Source: Candidatus Poribacteria bacterium (GTDB lineage Bacteria; Poribacteria; WGA-4E; WGA-3G). Taken from it: 64,000 bases of DNA. How positions within the stretch are numbered: position 1 is the first letter of the stretch; each line of letters begins with the position of its first letter. Under the pieces are notes generated by a model. The model saw only the letters and a list, made by a program, of their open reading frames with translations, was not told the DNA's origin and ran no database searches. A program made the translations under genes and the position numbers. This document shows positions 22,693 to 35,061 of this stretch, piece by piece. The stretch is taken from the NCBI GenBank assembly GCA_965242965.1, contig OZ251518.1, forward strand, positions 3,712,001 through 3,776,000, written 5' to 3'.

Positions 22693-25536
22693 ATGCCAAA
22701 ACCCCGAAAGAAACTCATTGAGGTGAGTCTACCGTTGGAGGTCATCAACCGAGAAGCAACAAAAGATGCCTCCCTGACGCACGGGCACCCCTCAACGCTA
22801 CATCGATATTGGGCGCGGCGCCCTCTCGCGGCATGCCGTGCTGTGATTTTTGCCAGCATGGTAGATGATCCTGTCTCTTGTGAGGACGAATTCCCTACCG
22901 AAGGAGATCAGAACGTTGAACGCAGCCGGCTCCACGGCCTCCTTCGCAGACTCGTCGTTTGGCAAAATAGCAACGACGAAAAACTCTTGGAGGCAGCACG
23001 CCTAGAAATTGCAGTTTCCTCCGCGCGGAACCGCGGCGAAAACGCGAAAGCCTTTCGGAAAAGGTTTGAAAACAACCCGGATGCAGTCCTGCACTATCTC
23101 GGTGAACATTGCCCCGCCATTTACGATCCCTTTTGTGGTGGCGGTTCCATCTCGTTAGAGGCACAGCGACTGGGCTTACGCGCCCGCGGTTCTGACCTGA
23201 ATCCTCTCCCCGTTCTCCTTAATAAGGCGATGATCGAGTTGCCGCCGCAGTTCCACAACCAGAAACCGGTGAATCCAGACGCGGACCCGCTCGGCATGTT
23301 CACCGGCACTGGCAAACATCGGACGCGTGTTTTGTGGAAAGGCACCTCCGGTCTGGCGGACGATATCCGTTACTACGGCGCGTGGATGCGAGAGGAAGCG
23401 CGTCAACGCATCGGGCACCTCTACCCAGAGGTGCAACTGCCTGATGGAAAAACTGCGCCCGTGGTTGCGTGGTTATGGGCGCGCACCGTTCCGTGTATTA
23501 ACCCTGCCTGCGGCCTTCACATGCCCCTGATGAAAACTTTTTACCTTTGTAAAAAGAAAGGGAATGAGCATTGGCTCAAACCAATTGTTAATCGCGACTT
23601 GAATACCATCTCGTGGGTAGTGGAAAGTGCCGATACCCTCCTTCACCCCCTTTCACAAAACTTAAGTTATATTGCGCCTAGCGATGATGGAATGCGCAAA
23701 CCTACCGTCAACCGCACCGGTGCGCACTGTATCGCCTGCGGTAGTGCTGTCAAATTGGGTGATGTCCGCGCACAGGCGAGTGCCGGCAAAATGGGAGAAA
23801 CGATGGTGGCGATAGTCGCCGAGGGGAAACCCAAGTTGTTCCTCGCTCCGACAGCCGAACATATCCACGTGGCGATGTCCGCTAAATCCCCGCGCAGACC
23901 GCGGCAAGCGATGCCGAATAACCCGACTTTGGTGAGCGGGCGCGGCTATGGCATCACGCATTGGCATCAACTTTTCACCGAAAGGCAACTCATCGCTTTG
24001 AATACCTTCGGCGATTTGCTGTCAGAAGTTCACACCTGTCTCACACAAGATGGCGCAGAGAGCCACTACGCAGATTCCGTTTGCACCTATCTCGCTCTGG
24101 CAATCGGAAGAATCACTGAAACTAATTGTCGTTTCTCGTATTGGGATGTCGTTGATAGATTCATCTCTAAGGCCTTTACACGCCAGGCACTTCAAATGAC
24201 ATGGAATTTTTCTGAATCAAATCCGTTCTCCAATTCGACCCAGAATTGGATGGCGCAGGTGGAATGGATTGCGAAGGTCGTTGAGAAACTACCTGCTCCT
24301 GCACATCAAGGCGAAGTGTATCAAGCCGATGCTACCACTACCCGGCATGCGGCTGATAGGCCCGTCTTTGTCACCGATCCGCCCTACTACGACAATATCG
24401 ACTACGCCGATCTTTCGGATTTCTTCTATATCTGGATCCGGCCCTTACTCCGCGACATCTATCCGGATTTGCTCTCTGGGATGCTAACTCCTAAAGATGA
24501 GGAAATCGTTGCTATTCCGTCTCGGTTTGATGATCCGTCAAATCGGTTTGAGAGGTTGCTTGGCGAAACATTACTGCAGATGCGACAAAACTGCACCGAC
24601 GCGTTCCCTTCCTCTATCTTTTACGCTTACAGACAGCAGGAAGAGGAACGCGGTGGCAGAACCTCCACCGGCTGGGAGACAATGCTCATGGCAATCGTCA
24701 ATGCCGGCTTTCAGATAGTCGGCACGTGGTCCATGCGGACTGAGCGGCCTACAGGTGTCAAAACCAAGAAAAACGTACTCGCATCGTCTGTTCTTTTAGT
24801 TTGCCGGCCGCGCCCGGAAGACGCACCGTTCATCACCCTCCGCAACTTTCAGGCGGAACTCAAAAAGGCGATGCCGCCTGCACTGCGCAGACTCACCCGC
24901 ACTGCTAGAATCGATCCCGTAGATCTCGCGCAAGCCGCCATCGGCCCCGGCATGGAGGTATATTCTCGTTATAGCAAGGTGATGCGCATCAGCGGCGAGA
25001 GTGTCCCCATCCGAGAGGTGCTGAAATATATCAACGACGAAATCACCGCCTATCACGAAGAGGAGAGCGGCGCGTTGGATAAGACGACGCAGTTCTGTTT
25101 GACATGGTTTAAGCAGCATGGGTATCAGGCGGGCGATTTCGGCACGGCGCAGCTGCTGGCGACAGCGACAGGCGTAGACGTTGCGCAGCTGCACGAAAAG
25201 GTGTTGACAGCGGCGCGAGGCAAGGTGAAACTTTTCCGTCGCGAGGACTATTATGAACGTGAATTGAGCGATGAGGTATCAGCGTGGGAGGGGTGCCAGC
25301 GGATGGTATTCCACTTGACAGATACCGCGGTCGGCGGCGGGATTCAGGCGTGTGCGGCGGTTGTGCGTGCGATGGGTGCGGCGGATGAGTCTGCGGAGCG
25401 GCTGGCGCGCGTCTTGTATAGTTATTACGAGGCGTTAGACGATGCCTCAAGTGCGCTGGCATATAACACGTTGGTTCAAAATTGGACAGAGATTTGGGAT
25501 GCCAGTCGCGAGGCGCGGCAGAGCAGTTTCTACTAG
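22693..25536 (+). CDS. DUF1156 family adenine-specific DNA methyltransferase
   Basis: KKLIEVSLPL, HGHPSTLHRYWARRPL, DPFCGGGSI, TDPPYYDNI. Confidence 0.9.
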   Translation: MPKPRKKLIEVSLPLEVINREATKDASLTHGHPSTLHRYWARRPLAACRAVIFASMVDDPVSCEDEFPTEGDQNVERSRLHGLLRRLVVWQNSNDEKLLEAARLEIAVSSARNRGENAKAFRKRFENNPDAVLHYLGEHCPAIYDPFCGGGSISLEAQRLGLRARGSDLNPLPVLLNKAMIELPPQFHNQKPVNPDADPLGMFTGTGKHRTRVLWKGTSGLADDIRYYGAWMREEARQRIGHLYPEVQLPDGKTAPVVAWLWARTVPCINPACGLHMPLMKTFYLCKKKGNEHWLKPIVNRDLNTISWVVESADTLLHPLSQNLSYIAPSDDGMRKPTVNRTGAHCIACGSAVKLGDVRAQASAGKMGETMVAIVAEGKPKLFLAPTAEHIHVAMSAKSPRRPRQAMPNNPTLVSGRGYGITHWHQLFTERQLIALNTFGDLLSEVHTCLTQDGAESHYADSVCTYLALAIGRITETNCRFSYWDVVDRFISKAFTRQALQMTWNFSESNPFSNSTQNWMAQVEWIAKVVEKLPAPAHQGEVYQADATTTRHAADRPVFVTDPPYYDNIDYADLSDFFYIWIRPLLRDIYPDLLSGMLTPKDEEIVAIPSRFDDPSNRFERLLGETLLQMRQNCTDAFPSSIFYAYRQQEEERGGRTSTGWETMLMAIVNAGFQIVGTWSMRTERPTGVKTKKNVLASSVLLVCRPRPEDAPFITLRNFQAELKKAMPPALRRLTRTARIDPVDLAQAAIGPGMEVYSRYSKVMRISGESVPIREVLKYINDEITAYHEEESGALDKTTQFCLTWFKQHGYQAGDFGTAQLLATATGVDVAQLHEKVLTAARGKVKLFRREDYYERELSDEVSAWEGCQRMVFHLTDTAVGGGIQACAAVVRAMGAADESAERLARVLYSYYEALDDASSALAYNTLVQNWTEIWDASREARQSSFY

Positions 25537-30079: not shown

Positions 30080-30582
30080 ATCGCTCAACGTCGCGGTGAC
30101 AGTCTCGATGCGAGCGGTGTCCCCGTAGGAGAGCCCTCCCGGTCTCGATGCACATTCTGTAGTTCGGGCTCGCCTGCTCCCGACCGGGTCAGATCAGGCA
30201 GCGAGGGCCTGTCCCTCGCCCTCCGTGAAGGGGCGGCATTTTTTCACCGTAGCGCGGGGGCCCTCGGATGCCACACGCGCATCCGAGCGGGTTTCCCTCG
30301 CGAACGTTCGGGGTGCCGAGACATGGCGAGGGACAGGCCCTCGCCCTACGGTGAGGGGGGGCGTTTTGTGAAGAAGATGTCCCGTTACCGTAGTGCGGGG
30401 CCCCTCGGATGCCATCCGCGCATGCGAGCGGGTTTCCCTCGCAATCGTTCGGGGTGCCGAGACATGGCGAGGGACAGGCCCTCGCCCTACGGTAATCGAG
30501 ACCAGGAGGTCTCTCCTACCAGAGCTAATCGAGACTGGGAGGTCTCTCCTACCGGGAAGACATCGAGATATGAAACACCCTC
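30065..30582. mobile_element. MITE-like cassette with degenerate left TIR
   Basis: GAGCGTGTTTCCTA plus the subterminal TCGCTCAAC..CGCGGTGA also seen after the TIRs at 6346 and 42047; right TIR 30569-30583. Confidence 0.65.
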
Positions 30583-30673
30583 AATAAAAAACTTGACAAA
30601 TAGTCAAAAAATAGATAACATAATGCATAAACGTGGAATCTTGCTAAAAATGTTTTAAATGGAGGTAGGTATC

Positions 30674-32239
30674 ATGAAATCGCGTCGTATATCTTTGGCA
30701 TTGACGCTCTCGCTAGTGGCGCACGTGTGCATCGCGGTAGCCGTGGCGTATGTTGCGCTCACTGCCCAAAATCAGACACCGAGAGATACCATTGATGTCA
30801 GTTTTTTCATCCTCACGCCGCCGAAGGCGCAACCACGGGATTTGATAACGCCCGAGCTGCTCGTCGCGCCGGCACCGAATCCGGATTGGCAAGTCGTCCA
30901 GCAAACTGAGCCGACGACACGCCGTGCGGCTATTGCGAGACAGACGACAACGCCGATGAACACCGCACTGCCCGCTGCAGCCAGACCGGATGCACCGAAG
31001 CGGGGACAGGTGAACGTTTCTAGCACGCCTTCCGTTCGCACGGATATTGCGCCGCCGCTCACAACGGCGGCAGACCTGGCGATAGAATCGGAATCGCCGC
31101 TCGCCGCAGGTTTGCGTAGCGGGAATGCTCTCACCGCAGGGCTCAGTAACGGCGATGGCGATGGCGATGGTGAAAATGCTGGCACTGGACGCGGTGCCTT
31201 CGGCTCCGCAGGGGCAATGACTCAAGAACGCGGGAGAGGTTATGCCGGCCTAGACACCCTCGTCGGTGGTGCAGGCGTTGCGAATATGAACGCCGCTCTG
31301 GCAGACGTTACGGAGAACATTGTGCTTGGCAACAATGTGCCTCCCCTCCCGAAAGGCTCACCGGGTGCTATCATCCAAGGCCGCGGCAAGGAGATACTGG
31401 GTAGGCTCAACCTTGTCCGCTTGGATGATCCGTTGCATCCGAACCTTGATATATGAGGCAGCGGCATCGGACATCTCCGATTTGGGGCAGGTCTGCCCTA
31501 TTTAGTCAAGGCGTTGAACACGCAAACTGGTGTTCTCACTCAACTTGTTGACGCAGTTCAAATTACCGATGCGGCGTTCTTTGAATCGCCGATTATCTTC
31601 ATGGAGCCCGTCTCTAGTTCGGTCCTTCAGAGCAACACGCTTGGGCTCAGCGATGCTATCTGGGATACGCAGAGTTCGCGCGCTACGAAAGGCTACACTG
31701 ACCGGGAGGCGCAGCGCATCCGTGAATACGTTATCAACCGTGGTGGGTTTATCTATATGCCGACACACGGCAATACCGAGGAGGCGATGCGTCCGGCGCG
31801 GCGCGTCTTACGGCAAATTCTGCCGGAATATCACCTCTCCGTTATTCCCCGAGACCACGCGCTCTACAAGAGTTTTTATGAGTTGAACGGGCCGCTCCGT
31901 TTTCCTGTGCGGAAGATCGGACGCACCATTCTCCATCATGGGCCGTATAGCCAATTGCAAGGCGTTTTCATTGATGGACGACTAGCGGTTCTCGTGGATA
32001 CGGAGGCGATGATTCACGTGATGGATGGCGCGGTGCAGAAACCTTTCTTCGGGCATTACCAAGATAGGAATAAGATCTTAGACGAATTCGCACCCGCTGC
32101 CGCGCGGCAACTCATCAACATTGTCGTTTACGCCGTAACGCACGGCGGTATCTCGGATTACAGCAACTATGTCCCAGCGGCGGCACTCTCGGATGATGCA
32201 GAACGCATCCCGGAAGCCGCACCGAAGACTCGGTTGTGA
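30674..32239 (+). CDS. Membrane-anchored DUF4159-domain protein with one in-frame TGA (31454-31456); candidate selenoprotein, alternatively a nonsense pseudogene
   Basis: ORFs 30659-31456 and 31514-32239 share a frame with open codons between them; DUF4159-like IREYVINRGGFIY, HALYKSFYEL, LQGVFIDGRLAV, INIVVYAVTH; SECIS-like hairpin downstream of the TGA. Confidence 0.7.
31483..31500 (+). promoter_or_regulatory. Putative bacterial SECIS element
   Basis: TGGGGCA-GGTC-TGCCCTA stem-loop containing GCAGGTCTGC; loop starts 34 nt after the TGA. Confidence 0.6.
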
Positions 32240-32327
32240 GGAAGATATTTTTGTAGACGAGACATCCTGCGGCATTGAGCCAGGGATGTCTCGCCTCCCG
32301 GAGAAAAAGCCAATACGCATCCGATGG

Positions 32328-32356
32328 TTGACAAACTGCAGTGAGCAAGGTATAAT
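32328..32356 (+). promoter_or_regulatory. Consensus sigma-70 promoter
   Basis: TTGACA-N17-TATAAT. Confidence 0.85.
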
Positions 32357-32361
32357 ATAGG

Positions 32362-32926
32362 GAGAGTGTTTCAGAACCGGTAGGAGAGACCTCCTGGTCT
32401 CGATGGCTTCGGGTAGGAGAGACCTCCTGGTCTCGATGTTCCCGTAGCGCGGGGCCCCGCGTTGTCTATCGTCAAGCGGTGGCGTTTTAGGTCCGTAGGA
32501 CCTTAATGTCTATAGCCCGCGCGCCCGCGAAGAACCCTAAGGTCCTTTAGGTCCTTAATAGATTTTGCCAGGGCCGCGTGTGTTTTTTATTAAGGACCTA
32601 AAGGACCTTGACAACGGAACGACACATGCTGCTATAGACATGTAGGTCCTAAAGGACCTAAGAACCGTTTTTTTTCGTATGCGGGGGCCTGTCCCCCGCG
32701 AGCATTGGATTGCGCGGACGATGGCGAGGGAAACCCTCTCGGATGCGCGTGTGGCATCCGAGGGCCCAAGCCCTACGATGAAGGGGGGCTTTCTGCCGTC
32801 GCGGCCCCGGTAGGCGCGCCGACAGGAAGGCATCGAGACCGGGAGGTCTCTCCTACGGGGACATCGCTTGCTCGGTATTCGCCCCCAACCGGGATAACTA
32901 CCGAAACGGATTTATGAAACACCCTG
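32362..32926. mobile_element. MITE-like cassette inserted just downstream of the -10 box
   Basis: Ends GAGAGTGTTTCAGA and TATGAAACACCCTG; flanks AATATAGG and AATATAGT. Confidence 0.75.
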
Positions 32927-32960: not shown

Positions 32961-33809
32961 ATGGCAAATTACGCAAACCCCGATGTCTTGGTAAGCACGG
33001 AATGGGTAGCGCAACACGGCGGCGATGCTGGCATCCGACTGCTTGAAGTGGACGTAGATACGTCCGCTTATGGCGACGGACACATCGCCGGTGCGGTTGG
33101 ACTCAACTGGCAGACGCAGCTCTGTGACCAGGTGCGGCGCGACATTCTCACCAAAGAACAGTTTGAGGCACTCTGCAACGACAGCGGCATCGACAACGAT
33201 ACCACCGTCGTTTTCTACGGCGACAATAATAATTGGTTCGCAACTTACGCATTGTGGCAGTTCCGTTACTATGGGCACGACGAAAGTTTGCTCAAGGTGA
33301 TGAACGGCGGCCGCCAAAAATGGATGGACGAAGGCAGAGCACTCGTCACCGAAGTCCCTGACTATGCAAGCACCGGGTATCGGGCGAAATTTCCTGATGA
33401 CAACGTGCGCGCGACGAAGGACAACATCCTGCCAACGTTGGAACAGGGTGTGATTCACCTCGTAGATGTCCGTTCGCCGGCAGAATTTTCAGGCGAAGTC
33501 ATCGCGCCACCCGGCATGAACGAGACGGCGCAACGCGGCGGACATATCCCCGGCGCGGCGAATATCCCGTGGGCAACCGCTGTCGCCGATGACGGCACCT
33601 TTAAATCCCACGACGAACTGCAGGCAATCTACGGCGGCGCAGGCGTTGACGCGGATAAGGAGACTATCGCATACTGCCGCATCGGCGAACGTTCATCGCA
33701 TACGTGGTTTGTGCTGAAGTATCTGCTCGGTTATGAGAAGGTGCGCAACTACGATGGGAGTTGGACGGAGTGGGGCAATCTTGTCGGCGCGCCCATCGCC
33801 CGCGACTAA
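32961..33809 (+). CDS. Thiosulfate sulfurtransferase (tandem rhodanese, SseA/CysA-like)
   Basis: LVSTEWV, GHIAGAV, QRGGHIPGA, YCRIGERSS, YDGSWTEWG. Confidence 0.95.
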   Translation: MANYANPDVLVSTEWVAQHGGDAGIRLLEVDVDTSAYGDGHIAGAVGLNWQTQLCDQVRRDILTKEQFEALCNDSGIDNDTTVVFYGDNNNWFATYALWQFRYYGHDESLLKVMNGGRQKWMDEGRALVTEVPDYASTGYRAKFPDDNVRATKDNILPTLEQGVIHLVDVRSPAEFSGEVIAPPGMNETAQRGGHIPGAANIPWATAVADDGTFKSHDELQAIYGGAGVDADKETIAYCRIGERSSHTWFVLKYLLGYEKVRNYDGSWTEWGNLVGAPIARD

Positions 33810-34233: not shown

Positions 34234-35061
34234 ATGTATTACTTAACCCGGCAGACTGCTTTTGAAGCCTCGCACTACAACCGCATTCCCGAACTGAGCG
34301 ACGCTGAGAATTACGCGCTATTCGGGGCCGCCGCGAATCCGAATAGCCACGGACACAACTACGTGCTTGAGGTGATGCTGAAAGGCGAACTTGAAGCGGA
34401 CAACGGGATGGTTATCAATTTGGTGACGTTAGACGCGTTGTTGAAGGAAGAGGTGCTCGCACACTATGATCATCGGCATTTGAACCTTCAACACCCGGTG
34501 TTCTCACGCAACCCGCAGTTGCAACCGACAGACGAAAACATCGCCATGGAGATTTGGGGGCGGCTGGTTCCGTCTCTCCCAGACGGCTTGCTGCATCGGG
34601 TGCGCCTGTATTCACAGACAACGCAATTCGCTGACTATTATGGAGAAGGACTGATGGTTTACCTCACCAAAGTCTACGAGTTTAGTGCCGCGCATCGCCT
34701 GCACAGCCACGTCCTCAGCGATGCCGAAAACCGCGACATCTTCGGGAAGTGCAACAATCCGGCGGGGCACGGCCATAACTACGTCATGGAAGTCACCGTT
34801 AAGGGCGACGTAGATGCGAAAACGGGGCTCGTCGCGAGGCTGAATCTGCTTGACGAAGCGGTGGAAACCCAGGTCTACGCGCGGTTTGACTACAAGCATC
34901 TCAATCTGGATACGCCAGAATTTGAGACGCTCAACCCTACTTCGGAGAACTTCGTGAAAGTGTTGTGGGATGCGCTGGAACCCGCGGTGGCACCAGTCTC
35001 CTTACACCGCATCCGTTTGCGCGAAACTCCGAAAAATCATTTTGACTATTACGGTGAATAG
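34234..35061 (+). CDS. Tandem two-domain 6-pyruvoyl-tetrahydropterin synthase (PTPS/QueD family)
   Basis: Two T-fold repeats: FEASH..HGHNY..DHRHLN and FSAAH..CNNPAGHGHNY..ETPKN. Confidence 0.9.
   Translation: MYYLTRQTAFEASHYNRIPELSDAENYALFGAAANPNSHGHNYVLEVMLKGELEADNGMVINLVTLDALLKEEVLAHYDHRHLNLQHPVFSRNPQLQPTDENIAMEIWGRLVPSLPDGLLHRVRLYSQTTQFADYYGEGLMVYLTKVYEFSAAHRLHSHVLSDAENRDIFGKCNNPAGHGHNYVMEVTVKGDVDAKTGLVARLNLLDEAVETQVYARFDYKHLNLDTPEFETLNPTSENFVKVLWDALEPAVAPVSLHRIRLRETPKNHFDYYGE

What the first reader, a model, noticed from the sequence alone, without database searches (positions are those of the whole stretch)
30674..32239. Candidate new selenoprotein: DUF4159 protein with in-frame UGA and an fdhF-like SECIS
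Seen: two annotated ORFs share one frame and are separated only by TGA 31454-31456. Readthrough gives ..DDPLHPNLDI-U-GSGIGHLRFGAGLPYLVKALNTQTG.. and a 521-aa protein: TM anchor, Pro/Ala-rich linker, DUF4159-like domain. The downstream ORF has only a TTG start with no clear SD and would lack the start of the domain. Downstream of the UGA are the hairpins ATCGGA-CATC-TCCGAT (31466-31481) and TGGGGCA-GGTC-TGCCCTA (31483-31500). Known: GCAGGTCTGC is the SelB-binding apical core of the E. coli fdhF SECIS, and bacterial SECIS loops lie shortly downstream of the UGA with a G at the start of the loop. Inference: Sec insertion in a family I do not know as a selenoprotein family. The hairpin is further from the UGA than in fdhF.
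Basis: partly seen in the sequence, partly recalled or inferred. Interest (0 to 1): 0.85.

Follow-up and report, generated by a model that had tools for sequence, protein, structure and literature searches.

The report
New selenoprotein family in sponge bacteria
A membrane-anchored protein of unknown function in sponge-symbiont Poribacteria almost certainly carries selenocysteine at an in-frame UGA, which adds a selenoprotein family that current catalogues do not list and marks the likely functional site of the domain.

Summary

- **The codon.** TGA 31454-31456 joins two ORFs into one 521-aa protein: TM anchor, Ala/Thr/Gly/Pro-rich linker and a DUF4159-like domain.
- **The organism.** It is a Candidatus Poribacteria bacterium with selA, selB, selD and tRNA-Sec. 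At least five other genes carry an in-frame TGA. TGA is otherwise an ordinary stop.
- **Conservation.** All 67 distinct orthologous coding sequences collected have TGA in the same column. Every full-length subfamily relative without TGA has Cys there.
- **The hairpin.** GGGGCA-GGUC-UGYCCU is invariant in 67 of 67 Sec forms but intact in only 3 of 15 Cys forms. It lies in the strongest trough of synonymous variation in the gene and meets the published bacterial SECIS model.
- **Its limits.** Its 10-nt apex is identical to E. coli fdhF, but it sits 15 nt further from the UGA and has no bulge. No compensatory covariation was found. There is no RNA, protein or selenium evidence.
- **Novelty.** PF13709 is absent from a 2026 catalogue of 119 selenoprotein families, and no NCBIfam model hits the protein.
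- **The site.** Sec sits in a subfamily-specific 10-residue insertion. The two conserved Cys of canonical relatives are His here. One sister form is fused to an ECF sigma factor.
- **Function.** It remains inferred; no structure prediction could be run.

The parts
30593..30621 (+). Promoter-like site TTGACA-17-TAACAT upstream of the gene
   Evidence: 10 of 12 consensus matches. This is a consensus match only, and 2 sites were found against 1.5 expected from shuffles.
30661..30665 (+). Shine-Dalgarno-like GGAGG, 8 nt before ATG 30674
   Evidence: Read from the sequence. It favours ATG 30674 over ATG 30659 as the start.
30674..32239 (+). Whole selenoprotein gene: 521 codons with Sec at codon 261, and terminal TGA at 32237-32239
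   Evidence: Full-length Cys homologues of 529-541 aa cover 97-99% of it.
30686..30772 (+). N-terminal transmembrane anchor (residues 5-33), preceded by MKSRR
   Evidence: the only window with Kyte-Doolittle hydropathy of 1.6 or more. The N-in/C-out topology is inferred from the positive-inside rule, which I recalled.
30773..31273 (+). Low-complexity linker rich in Ala, Thr, Gly and Pro (about residues 34-200)
   Evidence: for composition. One search gives a weak TonB-like match (19.5 bits, cut-off 315) and one search gives TonB chain 9ddo_F at E 0.011.
31391..32173 (+). DUF4159-like domain (about residues 240-500; the Pfam match proper is 341-487, nt 31694-32134)
   Evidence: One search aligns the profile to PDB 4i66_A from chain residue 13. 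Searches place DUF4159 in Pfam clan Glutaminase I.
31454..31456 (+). Sec codon UGA (U261), inside a 10-residue insertion specific to the subfamily
   Evidence: TGA in 67 of 67 distinct orthologues. Cys in the relatives that carry the insertion (17 of 17 rows with the insertion in A2); the other 33 of 50 rows lack the insertion.
31466..31481 (+). Hairpin 1, AUCGGA-CAUC-UCCGAU, with no G at the start of the loop
   Evidence: It is equally stable in Sec and Cys forms (mean -5.5 and -5.7 kcal/mol), so it is not Sec-specific.
31483..31500 (+). Hairpin 2, the proposed SECIS apex: (U)GGGGCA-GGUC-UGCCC(UA), loop at 31490-31493
   Evidence: the 12-nt core is intact in 67 of 67 Sec forms and 3 of 15 Cys forms.: -9.6 kcal/mol; the 15-mer is unique in the genome; the apex is identical to E. 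coli fdhF.
31436..31438 (+). His255 codon, specific to the subfamily (canonical relatives have Ser or Ala)
   Evidence: H in 16 of 17 subfamily rows.
31766..31768 (+). His365 codon in THGN, where canonical relatives have Cys in DDCG
   Evidence: H in 17 of 17 subfamily rows, C in 25 of 33 canonical rows.
32015..32017 (+). His448 codon, where canonical relatives have Cys
   Evidence: H in 17 of 17 subfamily rows, C in 26 of 33 canonical rows.

Best explanation
Window 30674-32239 is one gene for a 521-aa selenoprotein.

**Decoding (inferred).** UGA 31454-31456 is decoded as selenocysteine by Sec-tRNA(Sec) delivered by SelB. SelB is recruited by the downstream hairpin GGGGCA-GGUC-UGCCCU, whose loop starts 33 nt after the UGA. 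Hairpin 1 lies between the UGA and this apex.

**The protein (inferred).** It is tethered by one N-terminal TM helix and a long TonB-like linker. Its DUF4159-like domain, a class-I glutamine-amidotransferase-like fold, most likely faces the periplasm. Sec261 is the only Cys or Sec outside the membrane helix. It sits in a 10-residue insertion that defines a Poribacteria-restricted subfamily.

**The site.** In this subfamily the two conserved Cys of canonical relatives are replaced by His365 and His448, and His255 is gained.

**What is shown:** the conserved UGA paired with Cys in relatives, selection on the hairpin, the Sec machinery, and the residue switch.

**What is inferred:** SelB binding to hairpin 2, the topology, and the idea that Sec plus the His residues form one redox-active or metal-binding site. 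That site might serve envelope sensing, because sister forms are fused to an ECF sigma factor.
For: **Sec/Cys pair.**
- 21 of 23 database homologues have Cys at U261.
- In A2, all 17 of 50 rows that carry the insertion have Cys there.

**Conserved UGA.**
- 93 motif instances in 83 of 109 loci were 78 TGA, 14 TGT and 1 TGC.
- After removing duplicates, 67 of 67 Sec-form coding sequences have TGA in one column.
- The phylum search gave 85 rows with '1 TGA' out of 101 rows, in 77 of 176 genomes.
- L079 at 49% identity and L130-L133 from metagenomes also have TGA.

**Selection on RNA.**
- Codons +8 and +10 to +13 are invariant in 67 of 67.
- The 12 windows of 16 codons with the lowest synonymous diversity, out of 271, all start at -4 to +8. 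The gene mean is 0.452 over 258 columns.
- The core GGGGCAGGTCTG is intact in 67 of 67 Sec forms and 3 of 15 Cys forms. Eight of the 15 Cys forms have a GGTT loop.
- L079 has a different peptide context around U but the identical hairpin 2.

**Fit to the SECIS model.** The 4-nt loop starts with GG, the stem has 6-7 bp, the spacing is 33 nt and the energy is -9.6 kcal/mol. The published model asks for a 3-9 nt loop, a 4-16 bp stem, G in the first two loop positions, 16-37 nt spacing and -7.5 kcal/mol or lower (PMC13188914, section 5).

**Machinery and code.**
- selB scores 331 bits, selA 577 and selD 358, all over their cut-offs; selD itself carries an in-frame TGA. tRNA-Sec lies next to selB.
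- FdhA, MoeB, a UGSC-family gene and two Prx/ResA-like genes also carry an in-frame TGA.
- TGA ends 659 of 2561 long ORFs, so it is an ordinary stop in this genome.

**Other support.**
- Public gene calls are split exactly at the site.
- The sigma-fused Cys clade is nested within Sec forms with 99% support, which fits decay of a relic SECIS.
Against: - **No covariation.** 0 of 13 pairs show a change on both sides, and shuffles equal the observed values. Support rests on conservation alone.
- **Weak fold statistics.** The z-score is -1.20 for 76 nt and -1.74 for 49 nt.
- **Atypical spacing.** The loop lies 32-33 nt after the UGA. In the other in-frame-TGA genes of this genome it lies 16-20 nt after it: five, and selD read by eye. 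In E. coli fdhF it is 18 nt.
- **No bulge.** Hairpin 2 lacks the bulge that the fdhF fold shows.
- **Cys forms keep much of the sequence.** They score 65-83 bits with the covariance model against 78-87 for Sec forms. Coding constraint and shared ancestry therefore explain part of the conservation.
- **No Rfam match.** Rfam gave no SECIS match.
- **No direct evidence.** There is no transcript, peptide or selenium evidence, and no structure model. The Sec-His site and the topology are therefore untested.
Confidence: 0.92

Rival explanations
1. Sec is inserted, but hairpin 2 is not the SelB-binding element, or not on its own. The functional SECIS would be hairpin 1, the tandem pair acting as one unit, or a non-canonical element. 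On this reading the invariance of hairpin 2 comes largely from coding constraint on R-F-G-A-G-L.
For: - The spacing of 32-33 nt is outside the 16-20 nt seen in the other selenoprotein genes of this genome.
- The loop of hairpin 1 lies at +16 to +19, which is the usual distance.
- Cys forms keep most of the sequence.
- There is no covariation.
- The review notes that some bacterial SECIS elements do not fit the model.
Against: - The loop of hairpin 1 (CAUC or AAUU) has no G in its first two positions, and hairpin 1 is as stable in Cys forms as in Sec forms.
- Only hairpin 2 separates Sec forms (67 of 67 intact) from Cys forms (3 of 15 intact), mostly through synonymous or loop changes.
- Its apex is identical to the E. 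coli fdhF apex.
Confidence: 0.1
2. The UGA is read through without selenocysteine, by near-cognate insertion of Trp, Cys or Arg, or by a local recoding signal. The full-length protein is then made but is not a selenoprotein.
For: No direct evidence for selenium in the protein. The hairpin is at an atypical distance.
Against: - The full Sec machinery and other selenoprotein genes are in the genome.
- selA is present in 163 of 176 genomes of the phylum.
- The only sense codons ever seen at the site are Cys codons.
- ARAGORN found no tRNA with a UCA anticodon other than tRNA-Sec among the 48 tRNAs.
- The apex matches a known SelB-binding loop.
Confidence: 0.04
3. The TGA is a true stop. Either there are two separate genes (a membrane stub and a truncated DUF4159 protein), or this is a pseudogene or a sequencing error.
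For: Public gene callers split the gene at the TGA. One relative, L134, is degraded: it has a 4-nt deletion of the loop and frameshifts.
Against: - The TGA and the frame are kept in 67 of 67 distinct orthologues from 48% to 87% identity.
- The 19 codons between the TGA and the TTG are among the best conserved in the protein, with synonymous variation at +1, +3, +9, +16 and +17.
- Cys relatives are continuous across the site.
- Contigs of four studies show no listed difference between 31382 and 31623 (56 differences were not listed).
Confidence: 0.02

Closest known systems
E. coli fdhF SECIS (formate dehydrogenase H, codon 140)
   Same: The apical 10 nt GCAGGUCUGC are identical, including the GGUC loop. 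In both genes this stretch encodes Ala-Gly-Leu, lies in the coding region downstream of the UGA, and sits in a genome with selABCD.
   Different: The loop starts 33 nt after the UGA instead of 18. The stem has no bulge. A second hairpin of 16 nt lies between the UGA and the apex. That SelB binds the fdhF apex and needs the bulged U is recalled, not tested here.
DUF4159 (PF13709; solved member PDB 4i66, Hoch_4089, function unknown)
   Same: The Pfam match is over the cut-off. The profile matches 4i66_A at E 1e-9. Motifs are shared, including E345, R350, Y352, H395, Y402 and Y486. DUF4159 belongs to Pfam clan Glutaminase I.
   Different: The N-terminal third of the domain has diverged. A 10-residue insertion carrying Sec or Cys replaces the S-D-W-W motif. 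The two conserved Cys are His here. The domain follows a TM anchor and a long linker.
[quoted passage not shown]
   Same: It is the one selenoprotein listed by name as a glutamine amidotransferase. DUF4159's own place in that fold clan comes from Pfam.
   Different: NCBIfam gives no hit to it. The motif here is D-I-U-G-S-G. Sec lies in an N-terminal insertion and not at the elbow position, which holds His365 here. The position of the nucleophile elbow is recalled.
ECF sigma factors with a C-terminal transmembrane extension (such as ECF52, SCO4117)
   Same: Sister forms of this protein carry Sigma70_r2 and r4 in front of the TM helix and the DUF4159-like domain. One of them, L104, has the in-frame TGA.
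   Different: The window's gene has no sigma domain, only five residues before the TM helix. For PMC5826349 I saw only the search listing and the start of the abstract.
TonB
   Same: Both have an N-terminal anchor followed by a long linker; the likeness in overall layout is recalled, and the only tool evidence is two weak matches.
   Different: The score is 19.5 bits against a cut-off of 315. There is no TonB C-terminal domain.

Membership tests
Bacterial selenoprotein gene (Sec-UGA plus bSECIS) | In-frame UGA with the reading frame and homology continuing across it | tested here: met
Bacterial selenoprotein gene (Sec-UGA plus bSECIS) | Homologues with Cys aligned to the UGA | tested here: met
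   21 of 23 homologues. 15 distinct Cys coding sequences. No other sense codon was found at the site.
Bacterial selenoprotein gene (Sec-UGA plus bSECIS) | UGA conserved among orthologues | tested here: met
   67 of 67 distinct coding sequences. 85 of 101 rows in the phylum search.
Bacterial selenoprotein gene (Sec-UGA plus bSECIS) | Downstream stem-loop that fits the bSECIS model: loop of 3-9 nt, stem of 4-16 bp, G in the first two loop positions, 16-37 nt from the UGA, and -7.5 kcal/mol or lower | tested here: met
   Loop GGUC, 6-7 bp, 33 nt, -9.6 kcal/mol. The model is from PMC13188914. The spacing is near the upper limit.
Bacterial selenoprotein gene (Sec-UGA plus bSECIS) | selA, selB, selC and selD in the same genome | tested here: met
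Bacterial selenoprotein gene (Sec-UGA plus bSECIS) | Base-pair covariation that supports the SECIS stem | tested here: not met
   0 of 13 pairs have changes on both sides. The stem hardly varies, so this says little either way.
Bacterial selenoprotein gene (Sec-UGA plus bSECIS) | Selenium shown in the protein | not testable with these tools
   It needs 75Se labelling or mass spectrometry.
DUF4159 (PF13709) | Pfam score over the gathering cut-off | tested here: met
   67.1 bits against 25.9, but only profile positions 65-201 of 202 are covered.
DUF4159 (PF13709) | Conserved Cys at the DDCG and YMC positions of the canonical relatives collected here | tested here: not met
   His365 and His448 take their place. 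These positions are conserved among the relatives collected here, not a published definition of the family.
E. coli fdhF-type SECIS | GGUC loop on a GCA/UGC stem | tested here: met
E. coli fdhF-type SECIS | Bulge in the upper stem, and a loop about 18 nt after the UGA | tested here: not met
   There is no bulge and the loop lies 33 nt after the UGA.
ECF sigma factor fusion | Sigma70_r2 and r4 domains in the same polypeptide | tested here: not met
   They are absent from the window's protein and present in paralogues.
Catalogued selenoprotein families (119 in PMC13188914; NCBIfam models) | A match to a listed domain accession or to an NCBIfam selenoprotein model | tested here: not met
   PF13709 occurs 0 times in the review. 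I read Table 1 in full. NCBIfam gives only a weak TonB hit.

The most novel reading that the evidence does not exclude
Sec261, His255, His365 and His448 form a selenium-histidine redox or metal centre. This centre replaced the two-cysteine site of canonical DUF4159 domains. It sits in the periplasm of Poribacteria and works as an envelope sensor. In the sigma-fused forms with the TGA (L104, G069) it would control an ECF sigma factor directly. That would be a sigma-factor polypeptide containing selenocysteine, decoded through a SECIS placed unusually far from its UGA.
Probability: 0.2. Interest if true: 0.75.

Novelty: new member of a known kind. Interest (0 to 1): 0.55.

Why it matters
- **A new family with an unusual Sec context.** It adds a selenoprotein family to the 119 catalogued. 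The Sec is not in a thioredoxin-like UxxC or CxxU motif. It is a lone Sec in a DUF4159 domain, which Pfam places in the Glutaminase I fold clan and whose function is unknown.
- **It marks a candidate functional site.** The Sec position, together with the paired Cys-to-His switch, points to a likely functional site in a widespread domain that nobody has characterised. That makes the domain's function testable.
- **It corrects annotation.** Current gene calls split this gene in two in dozens of Poribacteria genomes.
- **It is a natural SECIS spacing test.** The apex is identical to E. coli fdhF but lies 15 nt further downstream, so it shows how far a SECIS may sit from its UGA.
- **A sigma factor variant.** The sigma-fused form with the TGA would put selenocysteine into a sigma factor polypeptide, which the catalogue does not list.

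Tried and rejected
**Structure and look-alike tools**
It was first 'being made ready' and then switched off for all sessions. No model and no fold search were possible, so the clustering of Sec with the His residues is untested.
It does not hold P0003 (residues 215-529) or P0006.

**RNA tools**
- Rfam at E up to 10 gave only two chance-level matches and no SECIS family.
- The covariance model R1 finds only this site in the own genome. It does not separate Sec from Cys paralogues well: 78-87 bits against 65-83.

**Reads**
- No RNA holder was listed among 23 runs.
- Only contigs could be laid, and 56 differences were not listed.

**Gene neighbourhood**
- It gave no function.
- A rhodanese gene lies downstream in 34 of 59 loci, and the upstream side is not conserved.
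- In the other lineage, PD40 and CarboxypepD_reg genes flank the gene in 24 of 27 loci, against 0 and 1 of 36 in the window's lineage.
- I take this as lineage-specific synteny that hints at the cell envelope, nothing more.

**Other candidates and rejected readings**
- Four further ORFs with an in-frame TGA in the genome (L125, L126, L127, L129) matched no NCBIfam family. I dropped them as unproven.
- A pairing of GGCAG (+1 to +5) with CUGCC (+38 to +42) was considered. I rejected it because +1 to +5 varies among orthologues.
- A genome-wide reassignment of TGA was rejected.
- L105 could not be read at the site because it holds 58 N.

**Limits of the literature check**
Supplements of the review or of its cited surveys may list candidate families that I could not see.
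- 'Not in print' rests and on reading Table 1.
- The library leaves out most subscription journals.
Full report
**The observation.** The window holds ORF 30659/30674..31456 and, in the same frame, a TTG-ORF 31514..32239. Only TGA 31454-31456 separates them. Reading TGA as U gives 521 residues with U261 in DDPLHPNLDI-U-GSGIGHLRFGAGLPY. GGAGG at 30661-30665 favours ATG 30674 as the start. A promoter-like site lies at 30593-30621. Pfam DUF4159 matches residues 341-487, covering profile positions 65-201 of 202, at 67.1 bits against a cut-off of 25.9. There is one hydrophobic segment (residues 5-33), followed by a linker rich in Ala, Thr, Gly and Pro. U261 is the only Cys or Sec outside the membrane helix. 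Both hairpins are at the stated coordinates, at -5.7 and -9.6 kcal/mol.

**The organism and its Sec machinery.** Record titles of related loci name Candidatus Poribacteria, which are sponge-associated bacteria. The 5.70-Mb genome has the following:
- selB at 331 bits against a cut-off of 242, selA at 577 against 268, and selD at 358 against 125. The selD gene itself has an in-frame TGA.
- tRNA-Sec (anticodon tca) immediately downstream of selB.
- Other genes with an in-frame TGA: FdhA (TIGR01591, 746 bits), MoeB (NF006444, 536 bits) and a UGSC family gene (NF041046, 150 bits). Two Prx/ResA-like UxxC genes also qualify, although both score below the family cut-offs.

TGA ends 659 of 2561 ORFs of 300 codons or more, so it is a normal stop here. 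selA is over its cut-off in 163 of 176 genomes of the phylum.

**Homologues.** A search of 5.8 billion proteins gave 23 hits. Twenty-one are full length at 43-51% identity and have Cys at the aligned position. The other two are canonical DUF4159-like proteins. In a wider alignment of 50 sequences, the Sec/Cys residue lies in a 10-residue insertion. Seventeen rows carry the insertion, all with Cys. The 33 canonical rows lack it and have R-x-x-H-x-L-S-D-W-W there. An exhaustive representative search returned many half-length gene calls. Some end at about residue 260 (P0026, P0032, P0034-36, P0046) and others start at about 280 (P0028, P0030). Public annotation therefore splits the gene at the TGA.

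**Conservation of the TGA.**
- Among 41 related genomes, 17 rows at 48-100% identity have exactly one TGA inside the match.
- Across the phylum, 77 of 176 genomes have a match at E 1e-90 or better. Of the 101 rows, 85 carry one TGA and 16 carry none. Fifteen of those 16 are full-length Cys forms, all in one family-level lineage, and one is a fragment that does not reach the site.
- A motif scan of 109 loci found 93 instances in 83 loci: 78 TGA, 14 TGT and 1 TGC.
- After removing duplicates there are 67 Sec and 15 Cys coding sequences. All 67 have TGA in the same column.
- Of the loci missed by the strict motif, L079 (49% identity) has TGA in a different peptide context (..RTAS-U-STRIGE..), L105 is masked by N, and the rest are canonical relatives.
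- Metagenome contigs L130-L133 also carry TGA. L134 carries it too, but has lost the 4-nt loop and is frameshifted.
- Contigs from four studies laid on the gene show no listed difference between 31382 and 31623, although 56 differences were not listed.

**The RNA element.** In the 67 Sec forms, codons +8 (CGA), +10 (GGG), +11 (GCA), +12 (GGT) and +13 (CTG) are invariant, while flanking codons vary synonymously. Mean synonymous codon diversity over 258 usable columns is 0.452. The 12 lowest of 271 windows of 16 codons all start between -4 and +8.

The 12-nt core GGGGCAGGTCTG is intact in 67 of 67 Sec forms but in only 3 of 15 Cys forms. Eight Cys forms have GGTT in the loop, and others have stem changes. 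Mean stability of hairpin 2 is -8.6 kcal/mol in Sec forms and -6.4 in Cys forms. Hairpin 1 is equally stable in both.

RNAalifold predicts the same two hairpins on its own. There is no compensatory covariation: 0 of 13 pairs, with 95.2% of cells paired against 31-51% when the partners are slid. The only stem change is G-C to G-U, in 20 of 50 rows. The evidence is therefore conservation at synonymous sites plus the Sec/Cys contrast, not covariation.

The 15-mer is unique in the genome, and the covariance model finds only this site there. The model does not separate Sec sites from Cys sites cleanly (78-87 against 65-83 bits). Part of the conservation therefore comes from coding constraint and shared ancestry.

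**Comparison with known SECIS elements.** Hairpin 2 meets every constraint of the published bacterial model (PMC13188914, section 5). Its spacing of 33 nt is near the upper limit of 37. In E. coli K-12 fdhF the same 10-mer GCAGGTCTGC starts at +16, against +31 here. The fdhF fold also shows a bulge that hairpin 2 lacks. The best model-compliant hairpins of five other in-frame-TGA genes in this genome lie 16-20 nt after their UGA, and that of selD about 17 nt by eye. The extra 15 nt is close to the 16-nt length of hairpin 1. How SelB reaches the ribosome from that distance is open. I recall, but did not test, that in E. coli the spacing is critical.

**Evolution.** On a tree with the site masked, the Sec/Cys subfamily forms one clade (support 100) apart from the canonical relatives. 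At least three Sec/Cys changes are needed. The 14 sigma-fused Cys forms are nested inside Sec forms, with the sigma-fused Sec form L104 as sister (support 99). That fits a Sec-to-Cys replacement followed by decay of a relic SECIS. This was a quick tree, and the basal branching is unresolved.

**The protein and its possible function.** DUF4159 belongs to Pfam clan Glutaminase I on structural grounds. Its one solved member, 4i66, is uncharacterised. Compared with 33 canonical relatives, the 17 subfamily rows differ as follows:

| Position | Subfamily (17 rows) | Canonical relatives (33 rows) |
|---|---|---|
| 365 | His, 17 of 17 | Cys, 25 of 33 |
| 448 | His, 17 of 17 | Cys, 26 of 33 |
| 255 | His, 16 of 17 | mostly Ser or Ala |
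| 261 | Sec or Cys, in the insertion | no insertion |

His395 is shared by both groups.

I infer that the active or binding site was rebuilt from a two-Cys site into a Sec/Cys-plus-His site. I infer that it is redox-active or metal-binding. This is untested because no structure prediction was available.

The anchor, the linker and a weak TonB-like match suggest a periplasmic domain. In the second lineage, Sec forms sit in tandem behind a sigma-fused Cys form and ahead of a CarboxypepD_reg/PD40 beta-propeller gene. This layout is found in 24 of 27 loci of that lineage, with an HtrA-like protease nearby. That also points to the cell envelope. L104 encodes a 739-residue protein with Sigma70_r2 and r4_2, a TM helix and a DUF4159-like domain carrying the TGA at the same site. 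A row for G069 looks the same.

**Novelty.** DUF4159 and PF13709 each occur in only one paper of the library, the Pfam paper. 'Poribacteria' with 'selenocysteine' gave three papers. From their titles and the starts of their abstracts, none is about this protein. 'Selenoproteome' with 'sponge' and 'symbiont' gave none. The 2026 review lists 119 families, and I read Table 1 in full. PF13709 is not in it. The one entry it names as a glutamine amidotransferase is a CTP-synthase-related selenoprotein with a GxUxG motif, which is a different family. NCBIfam of June 2026 has no model that hits the protein beyond a weak TonB match. Supplements were closed and subscription journals are not covered.

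**Verdict.** This is a real feature and a new selenoprotein family of the ordinary bacterial kind. The SECIS is well supported but unusually distant from its UGA. The biochemical role is unknown.

Noticed in passing
window 30100-30560 and 32270-32870: Dense palindromic intergenic repeats lie on both sides of the gene in inverted orientation. Their units resemble ATCGAGACCGGGAGGTCTCTCCTAC and GCGAGGGCCTGTCCCTCGC. One pair of arms is 30243-30310 with 32715-32782 (68 nt, 88% complementary). They look like REP-type elements. Whether they mobilise or regulate the gene is unknown.
   Followed up: partly
window 32328-32356: A perfect sigma-70 consensus, TTGACA-17-TATAAT, lies in the repeat zone downstream of the gene. 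It is about 600 nt before the rhodanese gene at 32961.
   Followed up: no
window 32961-33809: A two-domain rhodanese gene follows the selenoprotein gene. It is found within 3 kb in 34 of 59 orthologous loci, and a PTPS gene (window 34234-35061) in 33 of 59. A sulfur or selenium transferase next to a selenoprotein is suggestive, but this may be plain synteny.
   Followed up: partly
G000 C1: 58884, 1196790, 1013254, 1927131, 4938231, 5502399: The same genome holds other genes with an in-frame TGA: SelD, two Prx/ResA-like UxxC proteins, a UGSC family protein, MoeB and FdhA. Their best hairpins lie 16-20 nt after the UGA.
   Followed up: yes
L104:2380-4599: An ECF sigma factor (Sigma70_r2 and r4_2) is fused to a TM helix and a DUF4159-like domain that has the in-frame TGA at the same site. 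This predicts a sigma-factor polypeptide containing selenocysteine. G069:C50:194083-195651 looks the same.
   Followed up: partly
L163 and L164 (G038:C1:4144500-4172500): Two convergent Sec paralogues lie about 20 kb apart. Each has a PD40 gene upstream and is followed by a CarboxypepD_reg plus PD40 beta-propeller gene. An HtrA-like protease, an amidohydrolase, a PhyH gene and an epimerase lie between them. Similar pairs appear in several genomes.
   Followed up: partly
L134:1000-1080: A divergent relative (42% identity) keeps the TGA but lacks the four loop bases GGTC and is frameshifted. It is either a decaying copy or an assembly error on a short contig.
   Followed up: partly
window 22693-25536: A 947-residue ORF has a DUF1156 domain and a weak D12 adenine methyltransferase match. 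It may be a restriction or defence methylase.
   Followed up: no
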